DNA of 64,000 nt from assembly GCA_043228905.1 (NCBI GenBank), contig JBHGNT010000035.1, forward strand, positions 1 to 64,000. The letters are read 5' to 3'. Below the pieces are notes generated by a model. The model had not been told where the DNA came from. It saw only the letters and a program-made list of their open reading frames with translations, and searched no databases. Of the stretch, positions 3,001 to 54,110 are shown piece by piece. The first letter of the stretch is position 1; every line of letters starts with the position of its first letter. Source of the DNA: Azolla caroliniana. Lineage: Eukaryota > Plantae > Polypodiophyta. The position numbers were made by a program, and so were the translations under genes.

Positions 3001-5280
3001 TTTACCTACTTGCTCTTGTCAACTCCCACCTCCAATTTGCTAATTTCTTCATGTCGCTCGACCTGATTTTTAAAATCTTGATTTTTTAATTCCATATCAT
3101 AGCTAGCGTTGTTAGCTTCGATTCGCATGTTTGAACACAAAAATCCGATATCACACGAGCCAGATATGAACATTTTAATTTACCTACTTACTCTTGTAAA
3201 CTCCTGCCTCAAATTAATTCCATATCATAGCTAGCGTTGTTAGCTTCAATTCGCATGTTTGAACACAGAAATCCGATATCACACGAGCCAGATATGAACA
3301 TTTTAATTTACCTACTTGCTCTTGTCAACTCCCACCTCAAATTTGCTAGTTTCTCCATGTCTCTCGACGTGGGTTTCAAAATCTTGACTTTTTAATTCCA
3401 TATCATAGCTAGCGTTGTTAGCTTCAATTCGCATGTTTGAACACAGAAATCCGATATCACACGAGCCAGATATGAACATTTTAATTTACCTACTTGCTCT
3501 TGTCAACTCCCACCTCAAATTTGCTAATTTCTTCATGTCGCTCGACCTGAGTTTTAAAATCTTGATTTTTTAATTCCATATCATAGCTAGCGTTGTTAGC
3601 TTCAATTTGCATGTTTGAACACAGAAATCCGATATCACACGAGCTAGATATGAACATTTTAATTTACCTACTTGCTCTTGTCAACTCCCACCTCAAATTT
3701 GCTAATTTCTTCATGTCGCTCGACCTGATTTTTAAAATCTTGATTTTTTAATTCCATATCATAGCTAGCGTTGTTAGCTTCGATTCGCATGTTTGAACAC
3801 AAAAATCCGATATCACACGAGCCAGATATGAACATTTTAATTTACCTACTTACTCTTGTCAACTCCTGCCTCAAATTAATTCCATATCATAGCTAGCGTT
3901 GTTAGCTTCAATTCGCATGTTTGAATACAGAAAGCCGATATCACACGAGCCAGATATGAACATTTTAATTTACCTACTTGCTCTTGTCAACTCCCACCTC
4001 AAATTTGCTAATTTCTTCATGTCTCTCGACGTGGGTTTCAAAATCTTGACTTTTTATTTCCATATCATAGCAAGCGTTGTTAGCTTCAATTCGCATGTTT
4101 GAACACAGAAATCCGATATCACACGAGCCAGATATGAACATTTTAATTTACCTACTTGCTCTTGTCAACTCCCACCTCCAATTTGCTAATTTCTTCATGT
4201 CGCTCGACCTGATTTTTAAAATCTTGATTTTTTAATTCCATATCATAGCTAGCGTTGTTAGCTTCGATTCGCATGTTTGAACACAAAAATCCGATATCAC
4301 ACGAGCCAGATATGAACATTTTAATTTACCTACTTACTCTTGTAAACTCCTGCCTCAAATTAATTCCATATCATAGCTAGCGTTGTTAGCTTCAATTCGC
4401 ATGTTTGAACACAGAAATCCGATATCACACGAGCCAGATATGAACATTTTAATTTACCTACTTGCTCTTGTCAACTCCCACCTCAAATTTGCTAGTTTCT
4501 TCATGTCTCTCGACGTGGGTTTCAAAATCTTGACTTTTTAATTCCATATCATAGCAAGCGTTGTTAGCTTCAATTCGCATGTTTGAACACAGATATCCGA
4601 TATCACACGAGCCAGATATGAACATTTTAATTTACCAACTTGCTCTTGTCAACTCCCACCTCAAATTTGCTAATTTCTTCATGTCGCTCGACCTGATTTT
4701 TAAAATCTTGATTTTTTAATTCCATATTATAGCTAGCGTTGTTAGCTTCGATTCGCATGTTTGAACACAAAAATCCGATATCACACGAGCCAGATATGAA
4801 CATTTTAATTTACCTACTTACTCTTGTCAACTCCTGCCTCAAATTAATTCCATATCATAGCTAGCGTTGTTAGCTTCAATTCGCATGTTTGAACACAGAA
4901 ATCCGATATCACACGAGCCAGATATGAACATTTTAATTTACCTACTTGCTCTTGTCAACTCCCACCTCAAATTTGCTAATTTCTTCATGTCGCTCGACCT
5001 GATTTTTAAAATTTTGATTTTTTAATTCCATATCATAGCTAGCGTTGTTAGCTTCGATTCGCACGTTTGAACACAAAAATCCGATATCACACGAGCCAGA
5101 TATGAACATTTTAATTTACCTACTTACTCTTGTCAACTCCTGGCTCAAATTTGCTAATTTCTTCATGTCTCTCGACGTGAGTGTCCAAATCTTGATTTTT
5201 TAATTCCATATCATAGCAAGCGTTGTTAGCTTCAATTCGCATGTTTGAACACAGAAATCCGATTTTACACGAGCCAAATA
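1..5280. repeat. Homogeneous satellite subfamily with 484/662/1146-bp higher-order repeats built from 178-bp and 128-bp monomers
   Basis: Diagnostic GAGCCAGATATG and CTTGCTCTTGTCAACTCCCACC variants. The 50-bp-deleted monomer (CAAATTAATTCC junction) recurs at ~611, 1095, 1580, 2242, 2727, 3211, 3872, 4357 and 4841. Identical spurious ORFs at 1607, 2753 and 3899 are spaced 1146 = 5x178 + 2x128. Confidence 0.9.
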
Positions 5281-8200
5281 TGAACATTTTAATTTACTAA
5301 CGCGTTGTTCTAAACTCCCTCCTCAAATTTGCTAATTTCTTCATGTCTCTCGACCTCCGTTTGAAAATCTTGATTTTTTAATTCCATATCATAGCTAGTT
5401 TTGTTAGTTTCGATTTACTCAAGGGCTCCTCTCAACTCCCTCCTCAAGTTTGCTAATTTCTTCATATCTCTCGACCTGAGTTTCAAAATCTGGAGTTTTT
5501 AAATCCACATCATAGCTAGCGTTGTTTGCTTCGATGCGCATGTTTGATCACAAAAATCCGTTATGACACGAGCCAGGTATGAACATTTTAATTTACCTAC
5601 TAGCTCTTCTCAACTCCCTTCTCAAATTTGGTAATTTCGTCATGTCTCTCGACCTGAGTTTCAAAATCTTGACTTTTTAATTCCATATCATAACTAGCGT
5701 TGTTAGATTCGATTCGCATGTTTGAACACAAAAATCCGATATCACACGAGCCAGGTAGGAACATTTTAATTTACTCAAGGGCTCCTCTCAACTCCCTTCT
5801 CAAGTTTCCTAATTTCGTCATGTCTCTCGACCTGAGTTTCAAAATCTTGATTTTTTAATTCTATATCATAGCTAGCGTTGTTAGCTTCGATTCACATGTT
5901 TGAACACAAAAATCCGATATGACACGAGCCAGGTATGAACATTTTAATTCACGTACTAGCTCTTCTCCACTCACTCCTCAAATTTTGTAATTTCGTCATG
6001 TCTCTCGACCTGAGTTTCAAAATCTTGATTTTTTAATTCCATATCATAGCTAGCGTTGTTGGCTTCGATTCGCATGTTTGAACACAAAAATCCGATATCA
6101 CACGAGCCAGGTAGGAACATTTTAATTTACTAACGCGCTCTTCTCCACTACCTCCAAAAATTTTCTAATTTCCTCATGTCTCTCGAGCGGAGTTTCAAAA
6201 TCTCGATTTTTTAATTCCATATTAGAGCTAGCGTTGTTAGCGTTGTTTGAACACAGAAATCCGATATCACACGAACCAGGTATGAACATTTTAATTTACT
6301 AACGCGCTCTTCTCCACTACCTCCTCAAATTTGCTATTTTCCTCATGTCTGTCGACCTGAGTTTCAAAATCTTGATTTTTTAATTCCATATCATAGTTAG
6401 CGTTGTTAGCTTCAATTTGCATGTTTGAACACAAAAATCCAATATCACAGGAGCTAGGTATGAACATTTTAATTTACTCAAGAGCTCTTCTCAACTCACT
6501 CCTCAAATTTTGTAATTTCGTCATGTCTCTCGACCTGAGTTTCAAAATCTTGATTTTTTAATTCCATATCAGAGCTAGCGTTGTTAGCTTCGATTCGCAT
6601 GTTTGAACACAAAAATCCGATATCACACGAGCCAGGTAGGTACATTTTAATTTACTCAAGGGCTCCTCTCAACTCCCTTCTCAAGTTTCCTAATTTCGTC
6701 ATGTCTCTCGACCTGAGTTTCAAAATCTTGATTTTTTAATTCTATATCATAGCTAGCGTTGTTAGCTTCGATTCACATGTTTGAACACAAAAATCCGATA
6801 TGACACGAGCCAGGTATGAACATTTTAATTCACGTACTAGCTCTTCTCCACTCACTCCTCAAATTTTGTAATTTCGTCATGTCTCTCGACCTGAGTTTCA
6901 AAATCTTGATTTTTTAATTCCATATCATAGCTAGCGTTGTTGGCTTCGATTCGCATGTTTGAACACAAAAATCCGATATCACACGAGCCAGGTAGGAACA
7001 TTTTAATTTACTAACGCGCTCTTCTCCACTACCTCCAAAAATTTTCTAATTTCCTCATGTCTCTCGAGCGGAGTTTCAAAATCTCGATTTTTTAATTCCA
7101 TATTAGAGCTAGCGTTGTTAGCGTTGTTTGAACACAGAAATCCGATATCACACGAACCAGGTATGAACATTTTAATTTACTAACGCGCTCTTCTCCACTA
7201 CCTCCTCAAATTTGCTATTTTCCTCATGTCTGTCGACCTGAGTCTCAAAATCTTGATTTTTGAATTCCGTATCATAGCTAGCGTTGTTAGCTTCGATTCG
7301 CATGTTTGAACACAAAAATCCGATATGACATGAGCCAGGTATGAACATTTTAATTTACCTACTAGCTCTTCTCAACTCACTCCTCAAATTTTGTAATTTC
7401 GTCATGTCTCTCGACCTGAGTTTCAAAATCTTGATTTTTTAATTCCATATCATAGCTAGCGTTGTTGGCTTCGATTCGCATGTTTGAACACAAAAATCCG
7501 ATATCACACGAGCCAGGTAGGAACATTTTAATTTACTAACGCGCTCTTCTCCACTACCTCCAAAAATTTTCTAATTTCCTCATGTCTCTCGAGCGGAGTT
7601 TCAAAATCTCGATTTTTGAATTCCATATTAGAGCTAGCGTTATTAGCTTCGATTCATATGTTTGAACACAGAAATCCGATATCACACGAACCAGGTATGA
7701 ACATTTTAATTTACTAACGCGCTCTTCTCCACTACCTCCTCCAATTTGCTAATTTCTTCATGTCTCTCGACCTGAGTTTCAAAATCTTGATTTTTTAATT
7801 CCATATAAGAGCTAGCGTTGTTAGCTTCGATTCGCATGTTTGAACACAAAAATACGATATCACACGAGCCACGTATGAACATTTTAATTTACCTACTAGC
7901 TCTTCTCAACGCCCTCCTCAAATTTGTTAATTTCTCCATGTCTGTCGACCTGAGTTTCAAAATCTTGATATTTTAATTCTATATCATAGCTAGCGTTGTT
8001 AGCTTCGATTTGCATTATTTAATTTACTCAAGGGCTCCTCTCAACTCCCTCCTCAAGTTTGCTATTATCGTCATGTCGCTCGACCTGAGTTTCAAAATCT
8101 TGATTTTTTAATTCCATATCATAGCTAGCGTTGTTAGCTTCGATTCGCATGTTTGAACACAAAAATCCGATATCACACAAGCCTGGTATGAACATTTTAA

Positions 8201-11200
8201 TTTACCTAGAGGCTCTTGTCAACTCCCTCCTCAAATTTGTTAATTTCTCCATGCCTCTCGACCTGATTTTTTAATATCATATTAGAGCTAGCGTTGTTAC
8301 CTTCGATTCACATGTTTGAACACAGAAATCCGATATCACACGAGCCAGGTATGAACATTTTAATTTACTAACGCGCTCTTCTCCACTACCTCCTAAAATT
8401 TGCTAATTTCTTCATGTCTGTCGAGCTGAGTTTCAAAATCTTGATTTTTTATTTCCATTTTAGAGCTAGCGTTGTTAGCTTCGATTCACATGTTTGAACA
8501 CAGGAATCAGATATCACACGAGCCAGGTACGAACATTTTAATTTACTAACGCGCTCTTCTCCACTACCTCCTCAAATTTGCTAATTTCTTCATGTCTCTC
8601 GACCTGAGTTTCAAAAGCTTCATTTTTTAATTGTAGATCAGAGCTAGCGTTGTTAGCTTCGATTCGCATGTTTCAACACAGGAATCCGATATCACACAAC
8701 CCTGGTATGAACATTTTAATTTACTAACGCGCTCTTCTCCACTACCTCCTAAAATTTTCTAATTTCCTCATGTCTCTCGAGCGGAGTTTCAAAATCTTGA
8801 TTTTTTAATTCCATATCATAGCTAGCGTTGTTAGCTTCGATTCACATGTTTGAACACAAAAATCCGATATGACACGAGCCAGGTATGAACATTTTAATTT
8901 ACGTACTAGCTCTTCTCCACTCACTCCTCAAATTTTGTAATTTCGTCATGTCGCTCGACCTGAGTTTCAAAATCTTGATTTTTTAATTCCGTATCATAGC
9001 TAGCATTGTTAGCTTCGATTCGCATGTTTGAACACAAAAATCCGATATGACACGAGCCAGGTATGAACATTTTAATTTACCTACTAGCTCTTCTCAACTC
9101 ACTCCTCAAATTTTGTAATTTCGTCATGTCTCTCGACCTGAGTTTCAAAATCTTGATTTTTTAATACCATATCATAGCTAGCGTTGTTGGCTTCGATTCG
9201 CATGTTTGAACACAAAAATCCGATATCACACGAGCCAGGTAGGAACATTTTAATTTACTAACGCGCTCTTCTCCACTACCTCCTAAAATTTTCTAATTTC
9301 CTCATGTCTCTCGACCTGAGTTTCAAAATCTTGATTTTTTAATTCCATATTAGAGCTAGCGTTATTAGCTTCGATTCGTATGTTTGAACACAGAAATCCG
9401 ATATCACACGAACCAGGTATGAACATTTTAATTTACTAACGCGCTCTTCTCCACTACCTCCTAAAATTTGCTAATTTCTTCATGTCTCTCGAGTTGAGTT
9501 TCAAAATTTTGATTTTTTAATTCCATATTAGAGGTAGCGTTGTTAGCTTCGATTCACATGTTTGAACACAGGAATCCGATATCACACGAGCCAGGTATGA
9601 ACATTTTAATTTACTAACGCGCTCTTCTCCACTACCTCCTCAAATTTGCTAATTTCTTCATGTCTCTCGACCTGAGTTTCAAAATCTTGATTTTTTAATT
9701 GTAGATCAGAGCTAGCGTTGTTAGCTTCGATTCGCATGTTTCAATACAGGAATCCGATATCACACGAGCCTGGTATGAACATTTTTATTTACTAACGCGC
9801 TCTTCTCCACTACCTCCTAAAATTTGCTAATTTCTTCATGTCTCTCGAGCTGAGTTTCAAAATCTTGATTTTTTAATTCCATATTAGAGGTAGCGTTGTT
9901 AGCTTCGATTCACATGTTTGAACACAGGAATCCGATATCACACGAGCCAGGTATGAACATTTTAATTTACTAACGCGCTCTTCTCTACTACCTCTTCAAA
10001 TTTGTTAATTTCTCCATGTCTGTGGACCTGAGTTTCAAAATCTTGATATTTTAATTCCATATCAGAGCTAGCGCTGTTAGCTTCGATTCACATGTTTGAA
10101 CACAAGAATCCGATATCACACGAGCCAGGTATGAACATTTTAATTTACTCAAGGCCTCCTCTTAACTCCCCTGTCAAGGTTACTAATTTCGTCATGTCTC
10201 TCGACCTGAGTTTCAAAATCTTGATTTTTTAATTCCATATCATAGCTTGCGTTGTTACCTTCCAATCGCATGTTTGAACACATAAATCCGATATGACACG
10301 AGCCAGGTATGAACATTTTAATTTACCTACTAACTCTTCTCAACTCACTCCTCAAATTTAGTAGTTTCGTCATGTCTCTCGACCTGAGTTTCAAAATCTT
10401 GATTTTTTAATTCCATATCATAGCTAGCGTTGTTACCTTCGATTCGCATGTTTGAACACATAAATCCGATATGACACGAGCCAGTTATGAACATTTTAAT
10501 TTACCTACTAGCTCTTCTCAACTCACTCCTCAAATTTCATAATTTCGTCGTGTCTCTCGACCTGAGTGTCAAAATCTTGATTTTTTAATTCCATATCATA
10601 GCTAGCGTTGTTAGATTCGATTCGCATGTTTGAACACAAAAATCCGATATCACACGAGCTAGCTATGAACATTTTAATTTGCGTACTAGCGCTTGTCAAC
10701 TACCTCCTCAAATTTACTAATTTCTTCATGTCTCTCGACCTAAGTTTCAAAATCTTGATATTTTAATTCTATATCATAGCTAGCGTTGTTAGCTTCGATT
10801 TGCATGTTTTAATTTACTCAAGGGCTCCTCTCAACTCCCTCCTCAAGTTTGCTATTATCGTCATGTCGCTCGACCTGAGTTTCAAAATCTTAATTTTTTA
10901 ATTCCATATCATAGCTAGCGTTGTTAGCTTCGATTCGCATGTTTGAACACAAAAATCCGATATCACATGAGCCTGGTATGAACATTTTAATTTACCTAGA
11001 GGCTCTTGTCAACTCCCTCCTCAAATTTGTTAATTTCTCCATGTCTCTCGACCTGAGTTTCAAAATCTTGATTTTTTAATATCATATTAGAGCTAGCGTT
11101 GTTACCTTCGATTCACATGTTTGAACACAGAAATCCGATATCACACGAGCCAGGTATGAACATTTTAATTTACTAACGGGCTCTTCTCCACTACCTCCTA

Positions 11201-14200
11201 AAATTTGGTAATTTCTTCATGTCTCTCGAGCTGTGTTTCAAAATATTGATTTTTTAAGTCCATATCAGAGCTAGCGTTGTTAGCTTCGATTCACATGTTT
11301 TCACACAAAAATACGATATCACACGAGCGACGTATGAACATTTTAATTTACCTAGACGCTCTTGTCAACTCCCTCCTCAAATTTGTTAATTTCTCCTTGT
11401 CGCTCGACCTGAGTTTCAAAATGTTGATTTTTTAATTCCATATTAGAGCTAGCGCTGTTAGCTTCGATTCACATGTTTGAACACAGAAATCCGATATCAC
11501 ACGAGCCAGGTATGAACATTTTAATTTACTAACGGGCTCTTCTCCACTAACTCCTAAAATTTGCTAATTTCTTCATGTCTCTCGAGCTGTGTTTCAAAAT
11601 CTTGATTTTTTAATTCCAAATTAGAGCTAACGTTGTTAGCTTCGATTCGCATGTTTGAACAAAGAAATCCGATATCACACGAGCCTGGTATGAACATTTA
11701 ACTTTACTAACGCGCTCTTCTCCACTACCTCTTCAAATTTGCTAATTTCTTCATGTCTCTCGACCTGAGTTTCAAAATCTTGATTTTTGAATTCCATATT
11801 AGAGCTAGCGTTGTTAGCTTCGATTCCCATGTTTGAACACAGAAATCCGATATCATACGAGCCAGGTATGAACATTTTAATTTACTAACGGGCTCTTCTC
11901 AACTACCTCCTAAAATTTGCTAATTTCTTCATGTCTCTCGAGCTGAATTTGAAAATCTTGATTTTTTAATTCCATATCAGAGCTAGTGCTGTTAGCTTCG
12001 ATTCACATGTTTGAACACAAGAATCCGATATCACACGAGCCAGGTATGAACATTTTAATTTACTCAAGGGCTCCTCTCAACTCCCTTGTCAAGGTTGCTA
12101 ATTTCGTCATGTCTCTCGACCTGAGTTTTAAAATCTTGATTTTTTAATTCCATATCATAGCTAGCGTTGTTACCTTCGATTCGCATATTTGAACACATAC
12201 ATCCGATATGACACGAGCCAGGTATGAACATTTTAATTTACCTACTAGCTCTTCTCAACTCACTCCTCAAATTTAGTAGTTTCGTCATGTCTCTCGACCT
12301 GAGTTTCAAAATCTTGATTTTTTAATTCCATATCATAGCTAGCGTTGTTAGCTTCGATTCGCATGTTTGAACACAAAAATCCGATATCACACGAGCTAGC
12401 TATGAACATTTTAATTTGCGTACTAGCGCTTGTCAACTACCTCCTCAAATTTGCTAATTTCTTCATTTCTCTCGACCTAAGTTTCAAAATCTTGATTTTT
12501 TAATTCAATATCAGCGCTAGCGTTGTTATCTTCGATTTGCATGTTTTAATTTACTCAAGGGCTCCTCTCAACTCCCTCCTCAAGTTTGCTATTTTCGTCA
12601 TGTCTCTCGACCTGAGTTTCAAAATCTTGATTTTTGAATTCCATATCAGTGCTAACGTTGTTAGCTTCGATTCGCATGTTTGAACACAAAAATCTGATAT
12701 CACACGAGCCACGTATGAACATTTTAATTTACTAACGCGCTCTTCTCCACTACCTCCTCAAATTTGCTAATTTCTTGATGTCCTTCGACCTGAATTTGAA
12801 AATCTTGATTTTTTAAATCCATATTAGAGCTAGCGCTGTTAGCTTCGATTCACATGTTTGAACACAAGAATCCGATATCACACGAGCCAGGTATGAACAT
12901 TTTAATTTACTCAAGGGCTCCTCTCAACTCCCTTGTCAAGGTTGCTAATTTCGTCATATCTCTCGACCTGTGTTTCAAAATCTTGATTTTTTAATTCCAT
13001 ATCATAGGTAGCGTTGTTACCTTCGATTCGCATGTTTGAACAAATAAATCCGATATGACACGAGCCAGGTATGAACATTTTAATTTACCTACTAGCTCTT
13101 CTCAACTCACTCCTCAAATTTGGTAATTTCGTCATGTCTCTCGACCTGAGTTTCAAAATCTTGATTTTTTAATTCCATATCATAGCTAGCGTTGTTAGCT
13201 TCGATTCGCATGTTTGAACACAAAAATCCGATATCACACGAGCTAGCTATGAACATTTTAATTTGCGTACTAGCGCTTGTCAACTACCTCCTCAAATTTG
13301 CTAATTTCTTCATTTCTCTCGACCTAAGTTTCAAAATCTTGATTTTTTAATTCAATATCAGCGCTAGCGTTGTTATCTTCGATTTGCATGTTTTAATTTA
13401 CTCAAGGGCTCCTCTCAACTCCCTCCTCAAGTTTGCTATTTTCGTCATGTCTCTCGACCTGAGTTTCAAAATCTTGATTTCTGAATTCCATATCAGTGCT
13501 AACGTTGTTAGCTTCGATTCGCATGTTTGAACACAAAAATCTGATATCACACGAGCCACGTATGAACATTTTAATTTACTAACGCGCTCTTCTCCACTAC
13601 CTCCTCAAATTTGCTAATTTCTTGATGTCCTTCGACCTGAATTTGAAAATCTTGATTTTTTAAATCCATATTAGAGCTAGCGCTGTTAGCTTCGATTCAC
13701 ATGTTTGAACACAAGAATCCGATATCACACGAGCCAGGTATGAACATTTTAATTTACTCAAGGGCTCCTCTGAACTCCCTTGTCAAGGTTGCTAATTTCG
13801 TCATATCTCTCGACCTGTGTTTCAAAATCTTGATTTTTTAATTCCATATCATAGGTAGCGTTGTTACCTTCGATTCGCATGTTTGAACAAATAAATCCGA
13901 TATGACACGAGCCAGGTATGAACATTTTAATTTACCTACTAGCTCTTCTCAACTCACTCCTCAAATTTGGTAATTTCGTCATGTCTCTCGACCTGAGTTT
14001 CAAAATCTTGATTTTTTAATTCCATATCATAGCTAGCGTTGTTAGCTTCGATTCGCATGTTTGAACACAAAAATCCGATATCACACGAGCTAGCTATGAA
14101 CATTTTAATTTGCGTACTAGCGCTTGTCAACTACCTCCTCAAATTTGCTAATTTCTTCATGTCTCTCGACCTAAGTTTCAAAATCTTGATTTTTTAATTC

Positions 14201-16780
14201 AATATCAGCGCTAGCGTGGTGAGCTTCGATTCGCATGTTTGAACACAAAAATCCGATATCACACGAGCCAGGTATAAACATTTTAATTTACCTACTAGCG
14301 CTTGTGAACTCCCTCCTAAAATGTGCTAATTTCTTCATGTCTCTCGACCTGAGTTTCAAAATCTTGATTTTTTAATTCCATATTAGAGCTAGCGTTGTTA
14401 GCTTCGATTCACATGTTTGAACACGAAAATCCGATATCATACGAGCCAGGTACGAATATTTTAATTTACTCAAGGGCTCCTCTCAACTCCCTCCTCAAGT
14501 TTGCTAATTTCGTCATGCCTCTGGACCTGAGTTTCAAAATCTTGATTTTTTAATTCCATATCATAGCTTGCGTTGTTAGCTTCGATTCGCATGTTTGAAC
14601 ACAAAAATCCGATATCACACGAGCCTGGTATGAACATTTTAATTTACCTAGAGGCTCTTGTCAACTCCCTCCTCAAATTTGTTAATTTCTCCATGCCTCT
14701 CGACCTGAGTTTCAAAATCTTGATTTTTTAATATCATATTAGAGCTAGCGTTGTTACCTTCGATTCACATGTTTGAACACAGAAATCCGATATCACACGA
14801 GCCAGGTATGAACATTTTAATTTACTCAAGGGCTCCTCTCAACTCCCTCCTCAAGTTTCCTAATTTCGTCATGTCGCTCGACCTGAGTTTCAAAATCTTG
14901 ATTTTTTAATTCCATATCATAGCTAGCGTTGTTAGCTTCGATTCGCATGTTTGAACACAAAAATCCGATATGACACGAGCCAGGTATGAACATTTTAATT
15001 TACCTAATAGCTCTTCTCAACTCACTCCTCATATTTTGTAATTTCGTCATGTCTCTCGACCTGAGTTTCAAAATCTTGATTTTTTAATTCCATATCATAG
15101 CTAGCGTTGTTAGCTTCGATTCGCATGTTTGAACACAAAAATCCGATATCACACGAGCCAGGTAGGAACATTTTAATTTACTCAAGGGCTCCTCTCAACT
15201 CCCTCCTCAAGTTTGCTATTTTCGTCATGTCTCTCGACTTGAGTTTCAGAATCTTGAGTTTTTAAATCCACATCATAGCTAACGTTGTTAGCTTTGATTC
15301 GCATGTTTGAACACAAAAGTCCGATATCACACGAGCCAGGTATGAACATTTTAATTTACCTCCTAGCTCTTCTCAACTCCATCCTCAAATCTGGTAATTT
15401 CGTCATGTCTCTCGACCTAAGTTTCAAAATCTTGATATTTTAATTCCATATCATAGCTAGCGTTGTTAGCTTCGATTTGCATGTTTGAACACAAAAATCC
15501 GATATCACACGAGCCAGGTATGAACATTTTAATTTACTCAAGGGCTCCTCTCAACTCCCTTGTCAAGGTTGCTAATTTCGTCATGTCTCTCGACCTGAGT
15601 TTTAAAATCTTGATTTTTTAATTCCATATCATAGCTAGCGTTGTTACCTTCGATACGCATGTTTGAACACATAAATCCGATATGACACGAGCCAGGTATG
15701 AACATTTTAATTTACGTACTAGTTCTTCTCAACTCACTCCTCAAATTTGGTAATTTCGTCATGTCTCTCGACCTGAGTTTCAAAATCTTGATTTTTTAAT
15801 TCCATATTATAGCTAGCGTTGTTAGCTTCGATTTGCATGTTTGAACACAAAAATCCGATATCACACGAGCCAGGTATGAACATTTAAATTTACTCAAGGG
15901 CTCCTCTCAACTCCCTTGTCAAGGTTGCTAATTTCGTCATGTCTCTCGACCTGAGTTTCAAAATCTTGATTTTTTAATTCTATATCATAGCTAGCGTTGT
16001 TAGATTCGATTCGCATGTTTGAACACAAAAATCCGATATCACACGAGCCAAGTAGGAACATTTAAATTTACACAATATCATAGCTAGCGTTGTTAGCTTC
16101 GATTCGCATGTTTGAACACAAAAATCCGATATGACACGAGCCAGGTATGAACATTTTAATTTACGTACTAGTTCTTCTCCACTCACTCCTCAAATTTGGT
16201 AATTTCGTCATGTCTCTCGACCTGAGTTTCAAAATCTTGATTTTTTAATTCCATATTATAGCTAGCGTTGTTAGCTTCGATTTGCATGTTTGAACACAAA
16301 AATCCGATATCACACGAGCCAGGTATGAACATTTAAATTTACTCAAGGGCTCCTCTCAACTCCCTTGTCAAGGTTGCTAATTTCGTCATGTCTCTCGACC
16401 TGAGTTTCAAAATCTTGATTTTTTAATTCCATATCATAGCTAGCGTTGTTACCTTCGATTCGCATGTTTGAACACATAAATCCGATATGACACGAGCCAG
16501 TTATGAACATTTTAATTTACCTACTAGCTCTTCTCAACTCACTCCTCAAATTTCATAATTTCGTCGTGTCTCTCGACCTGAGTGTCAAAATCTTGATTTT
16601 TTAATTCCATATCATAGCTAGCGTTGTTAGATTCGATTCGCATGTTTGAACACAAAAATCCGATATCACACGAGCCAGGTAGGAACATTTTAATTTACTC
16701 AAGGGCTCCTCTCAACTCCCTCCTCAAGTTTGCTATTTTCGTCATGTCGCTCGACTTGAGTTTCAAAATCTTGATTTTTT
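1..16780. repeat. 178-bp tandem satellite array, left block (probable centromeric/pericentromeric satellite)
   Basis: The AA of the TGTTTGAA landmark falls at 1, 179, 357 and 535 (period 178). Head-to-tail, one orientation, with occasional deleted monomers. Centromeric role is inferred from monomer size and HOR organisation only. Confidence 0.97.
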
Positions 16781-16789
16781 CATATTAAT

Positions 16790-17295
16790 AGACTATATAA
16801 TGTCTTATACGAGGAGTGCGGGCAGGATACTTCTTTGGCTGTGATTAGTGTTATTTGGTTAACTATTTGAGGATTTAGGGTTTGGGTGTGAAGGTTTGGG
16901 GTATATGGGTTAACTGAGGTTTTTGGGTTAAATATCTTAAGGGTTTAGGGTTTTGTTCGGAGGGTTTAGGGCATATGGGTAAAATATCTGAGGGTTTAGG
17001 GTTTGGTAGACTATATGATGTATTGCACGAGGAAAGCGGGCACGATACTTATTTAGGCTACGACTAGTGTTATTAGGTTAACTATTCTTAGGGTTTATGG
17101 GTTTGTTCTGAGGGTTTAGGGTATATGGGTTAAAATATTCTGAGGGTTTAGGGTAGTGTGTGCAAAAGTAAAGGTATTAAGGATTGGTAGGTTTAGGGTT
17201 TTTGTGGTAAGGGGAGATATGTTTGGAGAGGTATGATGATGAGGGTATGGGTTGGCGGGGATATAATGTGTTAGGGTTATTAGTTTAGGGTTGCG
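16790..17295 (-). repeat. PLE 3'-terminal region: two diverged ~218-bp direct repeats with interspersed TTTAGGG telomere-like motifs
   Basis: AGACTATAT..ACGAGGA..GCGGGCA.GATACTT..TAGTGTTATT.GGTTAACTATT starts at 16790 and 17008. AGGGTTTAGGG at 16940, 16961, 16991, 17111 and 17143, with further TTTAGGG near 16874, 17192 and 17284. Confidence 0.85.
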
Positions 17296-17455
17296 GGTAT
17301 TGGGTAGGTTAAAGATTAAGGGAAAGAGGGGGGAGTGCCACGTTTTACTTAGTGGGAATGAAATAGCATATATATTATTGAAAGCACAACTAACCACAAC
17401 ATAAAAACAATAGACACTTGAGAAGAAAATATATATTGATCAAATATATATTAAT

Positions 17456-17514
17456 ATGACCTATGTAGCAAACTAGTTTCGCTCATATATGGAGCTCATC
17501 AGTGCTTAGGTCAT
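17456..17514 (-). ncRNA. Minimal type I hammerhead ribozyme
   Basis: Minus strand reads AUGACCUA-AGCA-CUGAUGA-GCUC-CAUAUAU-GAGC-GAAA-C-UA-G-UU-UGCU-ACA-UAGGUCAU. Both core boxes present; stem II GCUC/GAGC; stem I AGCA/UGCU plus AUGACCUA/UAGGUCAU; very short stem III within the palindrome AAACUAGUUU. Predicted cleavage after GUU, between 17471 and 17470. Confidence 0.9.
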
Positions 17515-17857
17515 TTTCGAGTACAAAGGTAAGTTTATATAGGTTTGTGGTAAGGGGGGTGTAAGATGAGTGGTGGACAAGAGTGATAAATGTGAAAAGA
17601 AGTGAGGAGTATGGGAGGGAGTGGTGTAACACGGTGATAAGGGGGCAAGATATGATTTTGTAAAGGGAGGGAGTGGGTATCATGAGTTTGATAGAGATAA
17701 GTGGGTAACTAGAGGGTATAATAATGGTGATAAGTGGGTGACCGGAGGGTATGATAAGTGAGGGGAGGGGTGTGTATATGTGTGTGATGGTGGCTAGTAC
17801 GAGGTAAAGATGTGGGTGAAAAACGAGGGGAATACGAATTTAATAGTTATGGGGAAT

Positions 17858-17860
<3 letters not shown>

Positions 17861-17901
<41 letters not shown>

Positions 17902-18240
17902 TTAACTAATGAGAAGAGAGTGTGAAAAAAGGTGAGAAAAGAGAGAGGGAGAGAGAGAGAGAGAGAGAGAAAAGAAAAAAAGAAAGAAAGAAAGAAGAGA
18001 GACGTAGAGAAAAGAAAAGGTAGAGAGGGAGAAAAAAGGAAAAGAAAAAAGAGGTGAGTTTTAGAGTGTAGAGAGGGAGAAAAGTAAAGGTAGAGAGAGA
18101 GGAAAAAGAAATGATTTAGAGAGGGAGAAAGGTAAAGGTAGAGAGAGAAAGAGAAGGGGAGGGAAGGAGGAGATAGAGATAGAGAAAGGGAAAGTTAAGA
18201 GAGAAGAAATGTGAAGGTAGAGAGGGAGAAGATAGGGGGA
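17861..18240. repeat. (GA)19 microsatellite and polypurine tract (polypyrimidine on the PLE sense strand) in the PLE 3' UTR
   Basis: Perfect GA run at 17861-17898, a second run near 17950-17970, then almost pure A/G sequence to ~18240. Confidence 0.9.
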
Positions 18241-18307
18241 GATCCTCACGTGGTAAATATAGGGAGATAAAACTTGTGGTTTAAAAAAATAAAAATATGG
18301 AGAGGAC

Positions 18308-20285
18308 TTAGTGTGGATCTATAGTAATGTTTTTTGTGTTGACTAGTGAAGAGTGTAGATTTTTAGATTTAGTCCAACAAATTATTGGTTTGGGGATGTG
18401 TTGTAGTAGAGGGTCTTCTTGGAGGTTTAAGTGTAGGCTAGTAAGGGTTTCTTTTATTCCTAGATTAGGGGCTTGGTGTGTGAATTTTAGTTTAAAGATT
18501 ATGGGTGTCGGGGTTTGGTTAATGGTTTTGTTTGAGAGGAGAGTTGGTCTAAGGGAATAGGGGTGTTTTTTTAATATATTGAGGATAAAGTGTGTAGGGT
18601 ATCCTCGTGCTCGTAGTCTCTTAAAAAATAGTTGTTGCATTTTTAAATAACCTTGGGTTGTACTTTCTCTAATAATGTATCTTTTAAGTTCGTTCGAGAG
18701 GAAGCTTTTTTTGACGTGGATAGGATGTGTCGAGGTGAAGGGTATGTATTGGTAAGTATTAAGTTCTTTTTGAAAACAATTAAAGTTGAAATTATTATTA
18801 GCGAGGTTTATCCAAAGGTCGAGAAAAGGAAGTTTAGTGAGAGAGGTTTGGATGGTCAGTTTAATGGAGTTTTGAGTGGTAATACTATAGAAATTTAGGT
18901 AGTCTAAGAGTTGTGTTTTCGTACCGCTCCATACACCAAAGGCATCATCAATATATCTCGTGAAATAAAATAAATGGGGAGATGGGTTGGAATTCTCGAG
19001 GTATGACAAAAAAAGGCAAGCATATACTACGGAAAAATTGCTTCCCATGGCCGTGCCTTTAATTTGTTGATAGATTTGGTTATTAAATTTAAGGAAGTGA
19101 TATTCTAAGGTTAAGGCGCTGAGAGTATAGATGAGGTTGGCTTTTTGTTTTGAGAAATGGGGGGTAATTAGGTGTTTTAGGGCAAGTAGTCCTAGTTTTG
19201 GTGGAATACTCGGGTAGAGGGATTCTACGTCAAATGAAAAGATGAAGCTATTGGGTGGTGTGGTAAGGTTTTCTAGGGATTGTACTAAGGAGAATGAGTC
19301 TCTAAGGTATTGTTTTTGTTGTAGGAGTATGGGGAGGAGTTGGTGGTGTAGCCACTTAGAAGTTTGTTCAAATAACGAACCGTTGTAAGAACAAATAGGC
19401 CTATAGCCAATGGGTTCTTTGTGTACTTTGGGTAGGAAGTACATGGTGGGGACTCGGTATTCGTTGGATGGTTTGTGTAAGATGAATTTTATTTCTATGA
19501 GGGAGAGGGTTCCTAGGTGTTGATTCATTAATGTTTTTAATCTATGTAGGAGTTCTTCTAAGGGGAAGGTATCTACGGGTTTGTAAGTGGATGTATCGGA
19601 TAGGTGAGCTAGGGCTTTATCTAGGTATGTTTGTTTGTTTAAGACACAAACACCTACATTTTTGTCTGCGGGGAGGATGATAATGTGTTTATTGCTTTTA
19701 AGGCTTTTTAAGGCTTGTAGTAGGTGTAGTGGAATGTGTTTAGTGGGTAGGTTTGTATTATGGAGTTTTATGGTGAGGAGATTAAGGTGTTTATGAAGTA
19801 TGTCTTCTAACGGTGGGTATTGTGTAGGGGGGTTCCAAGAGGGGTTGGGTAGTTTAAAGGGGTTGTGTGGGGCGGAGGAGTCGTCTTGAAAGAAATGTCT
19901 AAGTCTAAGGGATCTACTAAGGTTATGGAATTCTTGAAGAATAGAAGTGGAGGTGGGGGGGGGGGGAGGGAGGTATAAACTTAAGACCTAGGTTAAGGAG
20001 TTTAATTTCTGACTTGCTAAGGGTATGTGTAGAAAGGTTGTGGATTTTACTACTATGAGGGGGACTAAAGGGTGTTGTAAGGGGTTTCCAAAATTTATAT
20101 CTAAGTTTCTTTTTACGTGTTTTTTTTGTATGTGGTCTAAAGGGGATTCTATGTGACATGTTACCTAGCCAATTAGAGGAATCTAGGGGGGTAGAGTTAC
20201 CATTAACAAAATACCACATACGTTTAGTTGGGTGTACGGCGTGTCTAAAACGTCGGTTTGATCTTTTAGCACGCCGTACTAAACG
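18308..20285 (-). CDS. PLE reverse transcriptase (ORF2, ~660 aa if repaired), broken by a 1-nt frameshift in a G12 run at 19955-19966
   Basis: The supplied 406-aa ORF frame stays open upstream of Met 19528 up to the G run (..TSTSILQEFHNLSRSLRLRHFF..ALKSLKSNKHIIILPADKNVGVCVLNKQTYLDKALAHLSDTSTY..). The 98-aa ORF 19923-20219 supplies the PLE N-terminal motif and its frame is open back past 20285. Removing one G joins the two. Confidence 0.85.
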
Positions 20286-20291
20286 TTTTTT
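20234..20291 (-). promoter_or_regulatory. Putative programmed -1 ribosomal frameshift signal, ORF1 to RT
   Basis: ORF1 ends CCA AAA AAC GTT TAG, giving heptamer A_AAA_AAC (20291-20285) in the correct phase. A 5-nt spacer precedes a hairpin GUACGGCGUG-CUAAAA / UUUUAG-A-CACGCCGUAC (20279-20234). The -1 frame is the RT N-terminal frame. Confidence 0.8.
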
Positions 20292-21429
20292 GGCCGGTGG
20301 AGGTTGTGAGTGGTGGGAAGTGTGATGTGAGAAGAATACATAGGGGATTTAGGGTGACTAGTTGAGGGGTGGATACAACTTGTGGATGGTTTGGTAGAGG
20401 TGGTGTAGGGAGGATGTTGGGTATGGGTTGATTGGGTGTAGTGGTTAGGGATGTAGGGGTTAAGAGAGGTGTATGAGGGGTTGGGGAAGGCTAAGGGTAT
20501 TTGGGAAAATAGGGGAGGGTTTATGTTGTGATTGTGGGTAGTTTCTTTAAACCAAGGGGGGCTTAGTGTGTGTGAATAGTTGTGAGAGGGGGGGGTAGGA
20601 AAGGTATTTCTAGAATTATTAGGAGGAGTATAAAAAGAAAACGAAAGAGAAGGAGAGTTAGGGGTAGGGTGAGCGTTAGGATTTACACAGTGGGTATGGG
20701 TAGGAGGGTAAGGATGAGTACTGTTTTGGGGTTGAAGGTCTTCGGGGGAGGGATACAAGGGGGGAGCGATGAAGCTGAATGGGGTGTGTTGGGGCTGGTG
20801 GTGAATCTGATGATAGGTATCTCGCGAATGGTGGAGTGGTGTGTCCTCCTCAAGTGGTGGCTGGAGCTGATAATTGGTGGTGGTTATGTTATGAATTGCC
20901 GTCTCGTATGTTGTCCGAGAGGGAGGTTGATGTTGGAGAGGGTGAGAAAACGGCGGGGGTCGAGGCGTCGGCAGAAGAGGCTGCTGTAATTTGCAGGGCT
21001 GGTCGCATGGTGGCAGCGGCGACGGCGGTGGCGGCGGCGGCTGCGGCTGAAGATCATTGTTGGGTTGGCGTTGATTTATATGTTGATGTCGATGCTGATA
21101 TGAGTGCATTTGGTGTTCTCTTTCCGTCATATATCTCCAGGGCTCGTGGTGTTGCGGTTGCGGAGGCGGCGGCTGAAAACCATTGTTAGGTTGGCCTCGG
21201 TTTTGATGCCGGTAAAGGTATACTTGTTGTTTGTTTTCAGGAGGAAATGGAGAGGAGAAGCTATGGATAGTGTTTGCTTTGGGCTGAAATGGGGCGGAAG
21301 GTATATGGCGGAGTTGCATTCGTTGGAGAAGTACGGGTTCGTTGAAACCAATAAATTTAACTATTGGTTCGTATTGATTGGAATCTAAATTATGGCGCGG
21401 GGTAATTTCGTGTGTTGTTATGTTATAAG
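20279..21429 (-). CDS. PLE ORF1, Pro/Gln/His/Thr-rich low-complexity protein, 5'-truncated
   Basis: Open frame of ~383 codons inside the insert. The first ~15 codons of the supplied 398-aa ORF (21430-21475) are satellite sequence, so the true start is missing. It ends exactly at the frameshift signal. Confidence 0.7.
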
Positions 21430-24400
21430 TGTTTGAACACAAAAATCCGATATCACACGAGCCAGGTATGAACATTTTAATTTACCTACTAGATCTTCTC
21501 AACTCCCTCCTCGAATTTGGTAATTTCGTCATGTCTCTTGACCTGAGTTTCAAAATCTTGATTTTTTAATTCCATATCATAACTAGCATTGTTAGCTTCG
21601 ATTCGCATGTTTGAACACAAAAATCCGATATCACACGAGCCAGGTATGAACATTTTAATTTACTCAAGGGCTCCTCTCAACTCCCTGGTCAAGGTTGCTA
21701 ATTTCGTCATGTCTCTCGACCTGAGTTTCAAAATCTTGATTTTTTAATTCCATATCATAGCTAGCGTTGTTACCTTCGATTCGCATGTTTGAACACATAA
21801 ATCCAATATGACACAAGCCAGGTATGAACATTTTAATTTACCTACTAGCTCTTCTCAACTCACTCCTCAAATTTAGTAATTTCGTCATGTCTCTCGACCT
21901 GAGTTTCAAAATCTTGACTTTTTAATTCCATATCATAGCTAGCGTTGTTAGATTCGATTCGCATGTTTGAACACAAAAATCCGATATCACACGAGCCAGG
22001 TAGGAACATTTTAATTTACTCAACAGCTCCTCTCAACTCCCTCCTCAAGTTTGCTATTTTCGTCATGTTTCTCGACCTGAGTTTCAAAATCTTGATTTTT
22101 TAATTCCATATCATAGGTAGCGTTGTTAGCTTCGATTCGCATGTTTGAACACAAAAATCCGATATCACACGAGCCAGGTAGGAACATTTTAATTTACTCA
22201 AGGGCTGCTCTCAACTCCCTCCTCAAGTTTGCTATTTTCGTCATGTCTCTCGACCTGAGTTTCAAAATCTTGATTTTTTAATTCCATATCATAGCTAGCG
22301 TTGTTAGCTTCGATTCGCATGTTTGAACACAAAAATCCGATATCACACGAGCCAGGTATGGACATTTTAATTTACTCAAAGGCTCCTCTCAACTCCCTCC
22401 TCAAGTTTGCTAATTTCTTCATATGTCTCGACCTGAGTTTCAAAATCTTGATTTTTCAATTCCATATCATAGCTAGCGTTGTTAGCTTCGATTCGCATGT
22501 ATGAACACAAAAATCCGATATCATACGAGCCAGGTACGAACATTTTAATTTACTCAAGGGCTCCTCTCAACTCCCTCCTCAAGTTTGCTAATTTCGTCAT
22601 GCCTCTCGACCTGAGTTTCAAAATTTTTATTTTTTAATTCCATATCATAGCTTGCGTTGTTAGCTTCGATTCGCATGTCTGAACACAAAAATCCGATATC
22701 ACACGAGCCAGGCATGAACATTTTAATTTACCTACTAGCTCTTCTCAACTCCCTCCTCGGATTTCGTAATTTCGTCATGTCTCTCGACCTGAATTTCAAA
22801 ATCTTGATTTTTTAATTCCATATCAAAACTAGCGTTGTTAGCTTCGATTCGCATGTTTCAACACAAAAATCCGATATCACACGAGCCAGGTATGAACATT
22901 TTAATTTACTCACGGTCTCCTCTCAACTCCCTCCTCAAGTTTGCTAATTTCTTCATATCTCTCGACTTAAGTTTCAAAATCTTGAGTTTTTAAATCCACA
23001 TCATAGCTAGCGTTGTTAGGTTTGGTTCGCATATTTGAACACAAAAATCCTATATCACACTCGCCAGGTATGAACATTTTAATTTACCTACTAGCTCTTC
23101 TCAACTCACTCCTCAATTTGGTAATTTCGTCATGTCTCTCGACCTGAGTTTCAAAATCTTGATTTTTTAACTCCATATCATAGCTAGCGTTGTTAGATTC
23201 GATTCGCATGTTTGAACACAAAAATCCGATATCACACGAGCCAGGTATGAACATTTTAATTTACCTACTAGCTCTTCTCAACTCACTCCTCGAATTTAGT
23301 AATTTCGTCATGTCTCTCGACCTGAGTTTCAAAATCTTGATTTTTTAATTCCATATCAAAACTAGCGTTGTTAGCTTCGATTCGCATGTTTGAACACATA
23401 AATCCGATATCAGACGAGCTAGGTATGAACATTTTAATTTACTCAAGGGCTCCTCTCAACTCCCTCCTCAAGTTTGCTAATTTCTTCATATCTCTCGACC
23501 TGAGTTTAAAATCTTGAGTTTTTAAATCCACATCATAGCTAGCGTTGTTAGCTTCGATTCGCATATTTGAACACAAAAATCCGATATCACACTCGCCAGG
23601 TATGAATATTTTAATTTACCTACTAGCTCTTCTCAACTCACTCCTCAAATTTGGTAATTTCGTCATGTCTCTCGACCTGAGTTTCAAAATCTTGATTTTT
23701 TAACTCCATATCATTGCTAGCGTTTGTAGATTCGATTCACATGTTTGAACACAAAAATCCGATATCACACGAGCCAGGTAGGAACATTTTAATTTACTCT
23801 AGGGGTCCTCACAACTCCCTCTTCAAGTTTGCTAATTTCGTCATGTCTCTCGATGTGAGTTTCAAAATCTTGATTTTTTAATTCCATATCGTAGCTAGCG
23901 TTGTTAGATTCGATTCGCATGTTTGAACACAAAAATCCGATTTCACACGAGCCAAGTATGGACATTTTAGTTTACTCAAGGGCTCCTCTCAACTCCCTCC
24001 TCAAGTTTGTTAATTTCTTCATATCTCTCGACATGAGTTTCAAAATCTTGAGTTTTTAAATCCACATCATAGCTAGCGTTCTTAGCTTCGATTCGCATGT
24101 TTGAATACAAAAATCCGATATCACACTCGCCAGGTATGAACATTTAAATTTACCTACCTACTCTTCTCAACTCCCTCCTCAAATTTGGTAATTTCGTCAT
24201 ATCTCTCGACCTAAGTTTGAAAATCTTGATTTTTTAATTCCTTATTATAGCTAGCGTTGTTAGCTTCGATTCGAATGTTTGAACACATAAATCCGATCTG
24301 ACACTCGCCAGGTATGAACATTTAAATTTACCTATTAGCTCTTCTCAACTCACTCCTCAAATTTGGTAATCTCCTCATGTCTCTCGACCTGAGTTTCAAA

Positions 24401-48400: not shown

Positions 48401-48799
48401 GACCTGAGTTTCAAAATCTTGATTTTTTAATTCCATATCAAAACTAGCGTTGTTAGCTTCGATTCGCATGTTTGAACACAAAAATCCGATATCACACGAG
48501 CCAGTTATGAACATTTTAATTTACTCAAGGGCTCCTCTCAACTCCCTCCTCAAGTTTGCTAATTTCTTCATATCTCTCGACCTAAGTTTAAAATCTTGAG
48601 TTTTTAAATCCACATCATAGCTAGCGTTGTTAGCTTCGATTCGCATATTTGAACACAAAAATCCGATATCACACTCGCCAGGTATGAATATTTTAATTTA
48701 CCTACTAGCTCTTCTCAACTCACTCCTCAAATTTGGTAATTTCGTCATGTCTCTCGACCTGAGTTTCAAAATCTTGATTTTTTAACTCCATATCATTGC
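21430..48799. repeat. 178-bp tandem satellite array, central block, with multi-monomer HORs and local duplications
   Basis: Period 178 (e.g. 22148 to 22326). Rare variants recur at near-integer monomer multiples: 2489 (14-mer), 1065 (6-mer), 1958 (11-mer), 2670 (15-mer), 4092 (23-mer). Confidence 0.97.
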
Positions 48800-49255
48800 T
48801 GTCAGGAACGCTACCTAGGCGGAGAAGGAATTAGTACTAAAAGAAGGATTAGTACAATTGTTGAGAACAGTACTAAGACAGAGAAGGATTAGTACTATGA
48901 GAGGTGTAGAACGTTGAGAGAAGGAACGAGTGAGAGGGAGAGAGAGAGAGAGAGAGAGAGAATGATGATACGAAGGATATATGTATTAGGTGAAGGAAAA
49001 TATACAATAACAGCTAGAAGGCTTAAGACTGGCGTTGAACCGATTTGGTTCGAACTAATGCCTTGCGCCTCCTTTTATAGTGTCTTCAGGAATACTCCTG
49101 AAGTTTCTAGAATGTTCCAGAGAAATCTGGAATATACATCCATTTCCTAATAAAATATAAATGAAAATAATATACTTCGAATTACAATGTATAATATAAC
49201 GGTAAAGACTCGACCCATGTAACAACAGGTTATGGGTTCGAGTCTAGTTATGACA
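48800..49255 (-). repeat. 3' LTR
   Basis: Direct repeat of 54111-54566, adjacent to the PPT. Contains a (GA)n tract and three short GAAGGA(A)TTAGTAC repeats. Confidence 0.97.
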
Positions 49256-54013: not shown

Positions 54014-54096
54014 TTTGATAGGGAGAATAAGGGTATTAGTATGAAGAGAAGGAGGATAAAAGGGAAGGAAGAGGGAGAGAAAGACCAGATGGAGGA

Positions 54097-54110
54097 AAAT
54101 CGGTTCAAAC
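54097..54110 (-). promoter_or_regulatory. Non-tRNA (self-priming, Tf1-type) primer binding site
   Basis: After the 5' LTR the minus strand reads GTTTGAACCGATTT, with no TGG start. TTGAACCGATTT is exactly complementary to AAATCGGTTCAA at 54357-54346 within the LTR. Confidence 0.85.

What the first reader, a model, noticed from the sequence alone, without database searches (positions are those of the whole stretch)
16781..17470. 3' RNA segment with multiple telomerase-template-like CCCUAAACCCU motifs, releasable by the ribozyme
Seen: five AGGGTTTAGGG (1.5 telomere repeats) plus further TTTAGGG copies, all C-strand on the element RNA and all 3' of the hammerhead cut site. Known: EN-deficient PLE RNAs carry reverse-complement telomeric repeats that anneal to G-overhangs, and the plant telomerase RNA template is CUAAACCCU-like. 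Conservative reading: annealing sites for priming on telomere ends. Speculative reading: cleavage frees a ~690-nt template RNA that works with the TERT-related RT as a proto-telomerase-like pair.
Basis: partly seen in the sequence, partly recalled or inferred. Interest (0 to 1): 0.75.

Follow-up and report, generated by a model that had tools for sequence, protein, structure and literature searches.

The report
Retrotransposon leader with telomere-like motifs
The stretch is the repeated end piece of a plant jumping gene that has no DNA-cutting enzyme; no copy examined is joined to a chromosome at its telomere-like motifs, so they are unlikely to be a telomerase template, but they possibly steer the element toward chromosome ends.

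Summary
The motifs are real and the host telomere is TTTAGGG, but the reading does not hold. The 690 nt are the pseudo-LTR of an endonuclease-less, two-ORF Penelope-like element (PLE). In tandem copies the segment runs straight into ORF1, so in the working RNA it is likely the 5' leader, not a free 3' RNA.

Of 19 independent insertions, 18 read junctions end at the leader/ORF1 boundary and none at a motif. Most subtelomeric copies point opposite to G-overhang priming (14 of 19 over all families). Four sister families lack the motifs yet transpose, and two of them also have telomeric tracts at 5' junctions. The host has its own TERT gene. A proto-telomerase pair is therefore very unlikely.

Two results are worth keeping:
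- In sister families, 7 of 49 mapped 5' ends fall within -2..+1 nt of the predicted hammerhead cut, a genomic footprint of cleaved RNA being reverse transcribed.
- Motif-bearing families sit in subtelomeric satellite far more often (13 of 27) than motif-less ones (7 of 88). This fits tethering rather than priming, but rests on only two related families.

No usable RNA data were found.

The parts
16781..17470 (-). Pseudo-LTR part downstream of the hammerhead cut; 5' leader of ORF1 in tandem copies
   Evidence: Followed directly by ORF1 in tandem copies on C96 and C32
16781..16783 (-). Fixed 3' end of the element: an ATG in frame with ORF1. The start conserved across families is the next ATG, 21 nt further, absent here
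16813..16820 (-). CGCACTCC motif about 30-45 nt before the 3' end, shared by all six families; candidate RT-initiation or promoter signal (inferred)
16940..16950 (-). CCCTAAACCCT motif 5
16961..16971 (-). CCCTAAACCCT motif 4
16991..17001 (-). CCCTAAACCCT motif 3
17111..17121 (-). CCCTAAACCCT motif 2
17143..17153 (-). CCCTAAACCCT motif 1
16874..16880 (-). Single CCCTAAA (further singles at 17192-17198 and 17284-17290)
17007..17054 (-). Older duplicate (83%) of the terminal block 16789-16836, 218 bp away; the motif region grew by local duplication
   Evidence: family D10
17449..17515 (-). Type I hammerhead with a 2-bp palindromic stem III; predicted cut between 17471 and 17470
17516..18307 (-). 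Pyrimidine-rich 3' UTR with (TC)n runs
18308..20348 (-). PLE reverse transcriptase ORF without GIY-YIG; split here at the homopolymer 19955-19966, open for 679 aa in other copies
20220..20291 (-). A AAA AAC heptamer plus hairpin (-34.9 kcal/mol over the 100-nt stretch folded) at the ORF1/RT overlap; predicted -1 frameshift site
   Evidence: slippery-site rule recalled
20279..21430 (-). Pro/His-rich C-terminal part of ORF1; the window copy is 5'-truncated at 21430 and lacks about 1.47 kb of the unit
1..16780 (+). 178-bp satellite, the insertion target (resumes at 21431); the same satellite borders telomere arrays elsewhere in the genome

Best explanation
The 690-nt segment is the pseudo-LTR of an endonuclease-less two-ORF Penelope-like retrotransposon and runs directly into ORF1 in tandem copies, so it likely forms the 5' leader of a hammerhead-cut, unit-length RNA, and its telomere-like motifs possibly tether the element near chromosome ends rather than prime or template DNA synthesis. 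Shown: the architecture, the fixed 3' end at the leader/ORF1 boundary, junctions away from the motifs, and dispersed interstitial insertion. Inferred: (1) tandem transcripts are cut at two hammerheads, giving an RNA ordered leader-ORF1-RT-3'UTR; (2) the RT starts internally at the leader/ORF1 boundary on a pre-existing DNA 3' end (break or nick) with a few bases of A/T-rich pairing; (3) it copies the leader and either stops at the cut (leader-only copies) or crosses the ribozyme junction on uncut RNA, a circle or by template jump, which yields body-plus-leader copies such as the window's; (4) short telomeric tracts at junctions come from host telomerase acting at the break. Weakest step (about 0.35 on its own): the motifs bias insertion to subtelomeres by pairing with G-strand DNA or through telomere-binding proteins.
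For: Unit of 6.1 kb read from a natural tandem copy: ORF1, overlap with a 679-aa RT, hammerhead, 690 nt, then ORF1 again. All 26 of 26 candidates for the family's 3' terminus were scored and merged by hand into 19 insertions. The 18 junctions read end between about -5 and +15 nt of the terminal ATG, often sharing AAAAT(C) with the target. The same layout holds in five sister families with leaders of about 150-440 nt. Of 49 curated 5' ends in sister families, 7 lie at -2..+1 of the cut, against 0.12-0.29 expected (P about 3e-8 on the local background). One of them (L222) continues as a whole unit. No fixed target-site duplication: 3 of 33 short copies scored above 10. Satellite occupancy is 13 of 27 for motif-bearing families against 7 of 88 for motif-less ones (Fisher p=1.2e-5). 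Internal initiation past the pLTR-ORF junction is shown in vitro for an EN+ PLE (PMC11167929), and a cut-and-circle model was proposed in PMC4209133.
Against: No family-A copy starts exactly at the cut: of 27 loci, 22 run through the ribozyme, 4 lack the post-cut motif, and 1 stops at -6 at an inversion. The cleaved-template evidence therefore comes from sister families only. The short palindromic stem III predicts poor monomer cleavage (PMC4209133), and in Anolis Poseidon uncut RNA was the main template (PMC11167929). The motif-satellite link rests on two related families (76% RT identity) against four, so ancestry, age or the ORF1 protein could explain it. One copy (C189) has C-strand telomeric units on both sides, so a G-strand repeat can probably serve as primer, though at the ORF1 boundary. 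Insertions inside terminal arrays would erode quickly, and only 18 array borders were seen.
Confidence: 0.68

Rival explanations
1. The motifs act as DNA: telo-boxes (AAACCCTA), next to (TC)n/GAGA runs, forming the pLTR's internal promoter or chromatin element bound by TRB-type proteins. The subtelomeric bias would be incidental.
For: What families A and B share is the telo-box rather than the 11-mer: B has 9-10 AAACCCTA, mostly AAACCCTAAT, but only 3 11-mers. PLE pLTRs hold the promoter in Penelope and Chlamys-3 (PMC8557442, passages). TRBs bind telo-boxes in promoters (abstract starts).
Against: Families C, D, E and B2 have no CCCTAAA in 0 of 22, 0 of 22, 0 of 12 and 0 of 4 located leaders, yet have young copies. 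This reading does not explain the satellite enrichment.
Confidence: 0.25
2. The motifs are neutral: a captured telomeric unit amplified by local duplication on a C/A-rich strand, or a relic of an ancestral telomere-priming stage.
For: The motifs sit in duplicated blocks, the strand has only 51 G in 690 nt, ORF1 also carries CCCTAA-like Pro-Asn repeats, and leaders differ freely between families.
Against: Families A and B amplified telomere-like units in different repeat contexts, and both are satellite-enriched.
Confidence: 0.2
3. One reading: the motifs anneal to telomeric G-overhangs and prime reverse transcription there, as in Athena, Coprina and Terminons.
For: Right strand, right host repeat, downstream of a hammerhead, predicted unpaired (0.92-0.96 against a mean of 0.70); known for EN- PLEs (PMC6431247, PMC8557442). 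The C189 copy is flanked by C-strand units.
Against: 0 of 18 read 3' junctions at a motif; 0 of 18 telomere borders with a copy in that orientation. Among satellite insertions 14 of 19 point the other way. The motifs start 180-320 nt from the ribozyme, not immediately next to it.
Confidence: 0.1
4. One reading: the cut frees a 690-nt template RNA that works with the RT as a proto-telomerase.
For: The 11-mer contains the Arabidopsis template CTAAACCCT (PMC6765143, passages). Short C-strand tracts occur at the 5' ends of two family-A copies (C96, C189). The 5'-truncated window copy could release such a piece from read-through RNA.
Against: Junction tracts also occur in motif-less families C and E and in both orientations (4 of 43 listed rows in B, C and E). 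The host has a TERT gene with TRBD above the Pfam cut-off and RT motifs. The segment is continuous with ORF1 in tandem copies. No flanking leader sequence was seen in junction tracts or telomere arrays inspected.
Confidence: 0.02

Closest known systems
Coprina / Athena EN-deficient PLEs (Gladyshev and Arkhipova 2007; known here only through passages in PMC8557442, PMC6431247, PMC13159263)
   Same: PLE RT without GIY-YIG, two ORFs, about 6 kb, hammerhead in the pLTR, reverse-complement telomeric motifs downstream of it, subtelomeric location. The closest named plant relatives are Selaginella moellendorffii (39%, EN-less length) and Ginkgo (43%) proteins.
   Different: Copies are not attached to telomeres at the motifs, mostly point the opposite way, and are dispersed through chromosome arms (78 scored of 617 RT candidates). 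Most sister families have no motifs.
Terminons of bdelloid rotifers
   Same: Hammerhead followed by C-rich telomeric sequence on the RNA; tandem chains.
   Different: There the repeats are immediately downstream of the ribozyme and mark the 3' end. Here they lie 180-600 nt downstream and the 3' end is a further 100-170 nt on, at the ORF1 boundary.
Poseidon PAc of Anolis (PMC11167929)
   Same: Reverse transcription starts inside the RNA near the pLTR-ORF junction; genomic ends mark that site.
   Different: PAc has an endonuclease, starts 111-118 nt into the ORF without homology to the target, and showed no need for cleavage. Here ends lie just at or before the start codon with microhomology, and sister-family copies start at the cut.
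PLE-X of Selaginella and Chara (PMC8557442)
   Same: EN-less plant PLEs with hammerheads that insert away from telomeres.
   Different: PLE-X belong to the Chlamys group with a CxC motif and target 28S rDNA in spike mosses. No tree was built here, so the clade is not assigned.
Plant telomerase RNA (PMC6765143)
   Same: Contains the 9-nt template permutation CTAAACCCT.
   Different: TR is a roughly 260-nt Pol III RNA with one template; this is a multi-motif leader of a coding retroelement.

Membership tests
Penelope-like elements | PLE-type RT with N-terminal motifs and thumb | tested here: met
   RVT_1 weak hit. The best 150 relatives include GIY-YIG-bearing PLE-like proteins (4 of 38 scanned). 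Motif names are recalled.
Penelope-like elements | Partial tandem copies forming pseudo-LTRs | tested here: met
   C96 and C32 in family A; tandems in B, B2, C and E
Penelope-like elements | Hammerhead in the pLTR | tested here: met
   45 of 45 cells paired but invariant. The outer stem I and the stem III palindrome change in a compensated way on direct reading.
EN-deficient PLEs (Coprina/Athena) | No GIY-YIG endonuclease | tested here: met
   No Pfam nuclease hit in the RT or in the ORF1 pieces scanned; the scan did detect GIY-YIG in relatives. A novel nuclease in ORF1 is not excluded.
EN-deficient PLEs (Coprina/Athena) | Reverse-complement telomeric repeats downstream of the hammerhead | tested here: met
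   met for families A and B only
EN-deficient PLEs (Coprina/Athena) | 3' end attached to telomeric G-overhang, 5' end toward the telomere | tested here: not met
   0 of 18 read 3' junctions at motifs; 14 of 19 satellite insertions in the opposite orientation
EN-deficient PLEs (Coprina/Athena) | RT falls in the Coprina or Athena clade | not tested
   No named reference set was at hand; only nearest named hits
Telomerase RNA / proto-telomerase | Template of one repeat plus a few bases | tested here: met
   11-mer contains CTAAACCCT (PMC6765143)
Telomerase RNA / proto-telomerase | Stand-alone non-coding RNA | tested here: not met
   Continuous with ORF1 in tandem copies
Telomerase RNA / proto-telomerase | Reiterative repeat addition by its RT | not testable with these tools
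   Needs primer extension; junction tracts in motif-less families point to host TERT

The most novel reading that the evidence does not exclude
An endonuclease-less PLE that has uncoupled telomere recognition from priming: telomere-complementary motifs in the leader guide the particle to chromosome ends, while cDNA starts at the ORF1 boundary on nearby breaks or lagging-strand 3' ends in the subtelomeric satellite, using a hammerhead-cut RNA whose two ends the RT bridges. Genomic copies that begin exactly at the cut would be the first in vivo footprint of PLE ribozyme cleavage found in my searches.
Probability: 0.3. Interest if true: 0.7.

Novelty: new variant of a known kind. Interest (0 to 1): 0.45.

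Why it matters
Two open questions on PLEs become testable in one genome. What does the hammerhead do? Passages in PMC8557442 call it unclear, and PMC11167929 found cleavage unnecessary in vitro; here sister-family copies start at the cut. How do EN-less elements find primers away from telomeres? Here six young families, two with telomeric motifs and four without, form a natural comparison. The proto-telomerase idea that drove the first score is not supported.

Tried and rejected
RNA evidence: no RNA holder was listed. This is no evidence either way.

Rfam at gathering score: no hit. PDB sequence search of the RT: no hit at E<=1. ORF1: no convincing Pfam family.

The 70% matches of the segment to contig ends looked like a 70-bp subtelomeric repeat but are plain telomere arrays. 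A TGA in ORF1 of the C96 copy looked like read-through but is private to that copy: 1 of 9 reads.

Orientation bias against the Athena direction is weak: 14 to 5, p=0.064. It is 15 to 5 if a 3'-truncated copy on C8 is added. One inverted pair was left out. Target k-mer availability does not clearly explain it. Lagging-strand priming as in RmInt1 (PMC6698660) stays a lead only.

The family-A copy on C13 that stops at -6 from the cut was not counted, because it is an inversion at a CTAG palindrome. The first structure count was out of register and was redone. Target-duplication scores for satellite insertions are meaningless because of periodicity.

Gladyshev and Arkhipova 2007 and Arkhipova et al. 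2017 were not held. No supplements were read; those of PMC8557442 list plant PLE families and may bear on novelty. Earlier scan findings were not available.

Full report
Observation. The five AGGGTTTAGGG are at 16940, 16961, 16991, 17111 and 17143, and 8 of the window's 10 TTTAGGG fall in the segment. They exceed whole-window shuffles and local Markov nulls, but they arose by local duplication. A hammerhead lies at 17515-17449 (Rfam HH9, E=0.02, below gathering) with a predicted GUU cut leaving 690 nt. The host telomere is TTTAGGG and the 178-bp satellite around the element borders telomere arrays. The host is a plant by telomere type and by the nearest named RT relatives, from Ginkgo and Selaginella; I did not identify it further.

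The element. On the minus strand, 21430-16781, lies a 5'-truncated Penelope-like element. A natural tandem copy on C96 gives the 6.1-kb unit: ORF1, an overlap with a predicted -1 frameshift site, a 679-aa RT without GIY-YIG, a pyrimidine-rich UTR, the hammerhead and the 690 nt. In the tandem copies on C96 and C32 the last three bases of the segment are an ATG in frame with ORF1 of the next unit; the start conserved among families is 21 nt further. The segment is thus the pseudo-LTR and, by inference, the 5' leader of a cut-to-cut RNA. The window copy lacks the ORF1 start and has its RT frame split at a homopolymer, which may be real or an assembly error.

Where copies join the genome. All 26 candidates for the family's 3' terminus were scored. 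I merged tandem partners and identical junctions by hand into 19 insertions. I read 18 junctions; the 19th, a rearranged remnant on C16, was not read. All 18 end within about -5 to +15 nt of the terminal ATG, often sharing AAAAT(C) with the target, and none ends at a motif. One (C60) is followed by about 14 G-strand repeats on the sense side. One (C189) has C-strand units on both sides, the only case that fits a telomeric primer, and it joins at the ORF1 boundary. The ribozyme-region search ranked 24 family-A hits before dropping to other families (40 of 116 candidates scored), and all map to these loci. Of 18 telomere-array borders inspected, 16 adjoin satellite, 1 other DNA, and 1 (C7) a family-B copy whose sense strand points to the telomere, the reverse of Athena. 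Among satellite insertions of all families, 14 of 19 point that way (p=0.064). There is no fixed target-site duplication.

Sister families. The RT search scored 78 of 617 candidates, many interstitial and with open frames. Five sister families (B, B2, C, D, E; my labels) share the ribozyme, a CGCACTCC motif and a fixed end just before ORF1. Only B has telomeric motifs (15 of 15 located leaders), mostly as AAACCCTAAT; C, D, E and B2 have none in 22, 22, 12 and 4 located leaders. For C, D and E only the best 30 loci each were fetched (of 73, 49 and 54 candidates). So the motifs are not needed for transposition. But families A and B lie in the subtelomeric satellite in 13 of 27 insertions against 7 of 88 for the rest (p=1.2e-5). 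A and B are close relatives, so this is one or two evolutionary events, not 27.

Ribozyme use. In the sister families, 7 of 49 mapped 5' ends lie at -2..+1 of the predicted cut (L205, L209, L206, L219, L152, L154, L222), against 0.12 (uniform) or 0.29 (local) expected. The 49 are curated from 60. I dropped 4 duplicates and 7 B2 ends caused by a divergent reference, and re-read 4 ends by eye (two D, two B2) that the aligner had misplaced; these 4 are among the 7. Loci were chosen by their 3' ends, not their 5' ends. A stall at the ribozyme stem would be expected further 3' (ends at +5, +8, +8, +18 may be such). No family-A copy starts exactly at the cut.

Telomerase test. Short telomeric tracts occur at 5' junctions in both orientations: in 2 family-A insertions and in 4 of 43 listed rows for B, C and E, including motif-less C and E. 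The genome has a TERT gene with TRBD above the Pfam cut-off and RT motifs. The simplest source of the tracts is host telomerase at the break (inference; a mammalian parallel appears in the listing of PMC2246262).

Mechanism. Shown: architecture, junctions, family comparison. Inferred: hammerhead cleavage of tandem RNA, internal initiation at the leader/ORF1 boundary on pre-existing DNA ends, crossing of the ribozyme junction by uncut RNA, circle or jump. Least certain: the motifs as a tether to chromosome ends (about 0.35), against telo-box promoter (0.25), neutral relic (0.2), direct priming (0.1) and template RNA (0.02).

Literature seen. PMC11167929 and PMC4209133: parts 1-2 of 4 each. Passages only: PMC8557442, PMC12477314, PMC6431247, PMC13159263, bioRxiv 10.64898/2026.07.22.740005 (79), PMC6765143, PMC6698660. 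Abstract starts only: TRB papers. The two primary Arkhipova papers on telomeric PLEs were not held, and no supplements were read. Searches listed no paper whose title or abstract start describes this family or PLE copies starting at the ribozyme cut; the library is partial.

Verdict. A real feature with a mostly wrong interpretation. It works like a Penelope pLTR with internal initiation. It meets the EN-less PLE features except telomere attachment, so I file it as a variant, not as a telomere-priming Coprina/Athena member. Interest 0.45.

Noticed in passing
window 48798-54565 (-): Intact-looking chromodomain Ty3/gypsy LTR retrotransposon with identical 457-bp LTRs inside the satellite.
   Followed up: partly
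window 20220-20291 (-); L073, L075, L084, L090: A AAA AAC heptamer and downstream hairpin conserved at the ORF1/RT overlap in several families: predicted -1 ribosomal frameshift.
   Followed up: partly
L032:4400-4710 (C7); L072 ORF1: ORF1 encodes Pro-Asn repeats through CCCTAA (TTAGGG-type) tandem runs, a second telomere-like tract on the same RNA strand.
   Followed up: no
L032:3715-7900 (C7 start): A family-B tandem is the terminal DNA of a chromosome end, broken in ORF1 and capped with TTTAGGG on its sense 3' side; its 5' junction has 1.5 G-strand repeats.
   Followed up: yes
L231/L232 (C10:106.4-107.0 kb); L241/L242 (C21): Head-to-head inverted pairs of short family-E copies, as if both sides of one break were primed.
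   Followed up: partly
L060 (C13:4.94 Mb): Family-A copy inverted at the CTAG palindrome of hammerhead stem III, 2 nt before the cut.
   Followed up: partly
L051 (C136): Copy with the same junctions as the window's but a 289-bp deletion between two telomere-like motifs.
   Followed up: partly
L043-L046, L069 (C189): An older family-A copy has been amplified in pieces within another tandem repeat that itself carries telomere-like units.
   Followed up: partly
L033, L047, L091, L095 (contig starts): A short non-telomeric stretch that looks like a library adapter (recalled) interrupts several telomere arrays: probable assembly artefact.
   Followed up: no
L268 (C3:6.34 Mb): Host TERT gene exons with TRBD and RT motifs.
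   Followed up: partly
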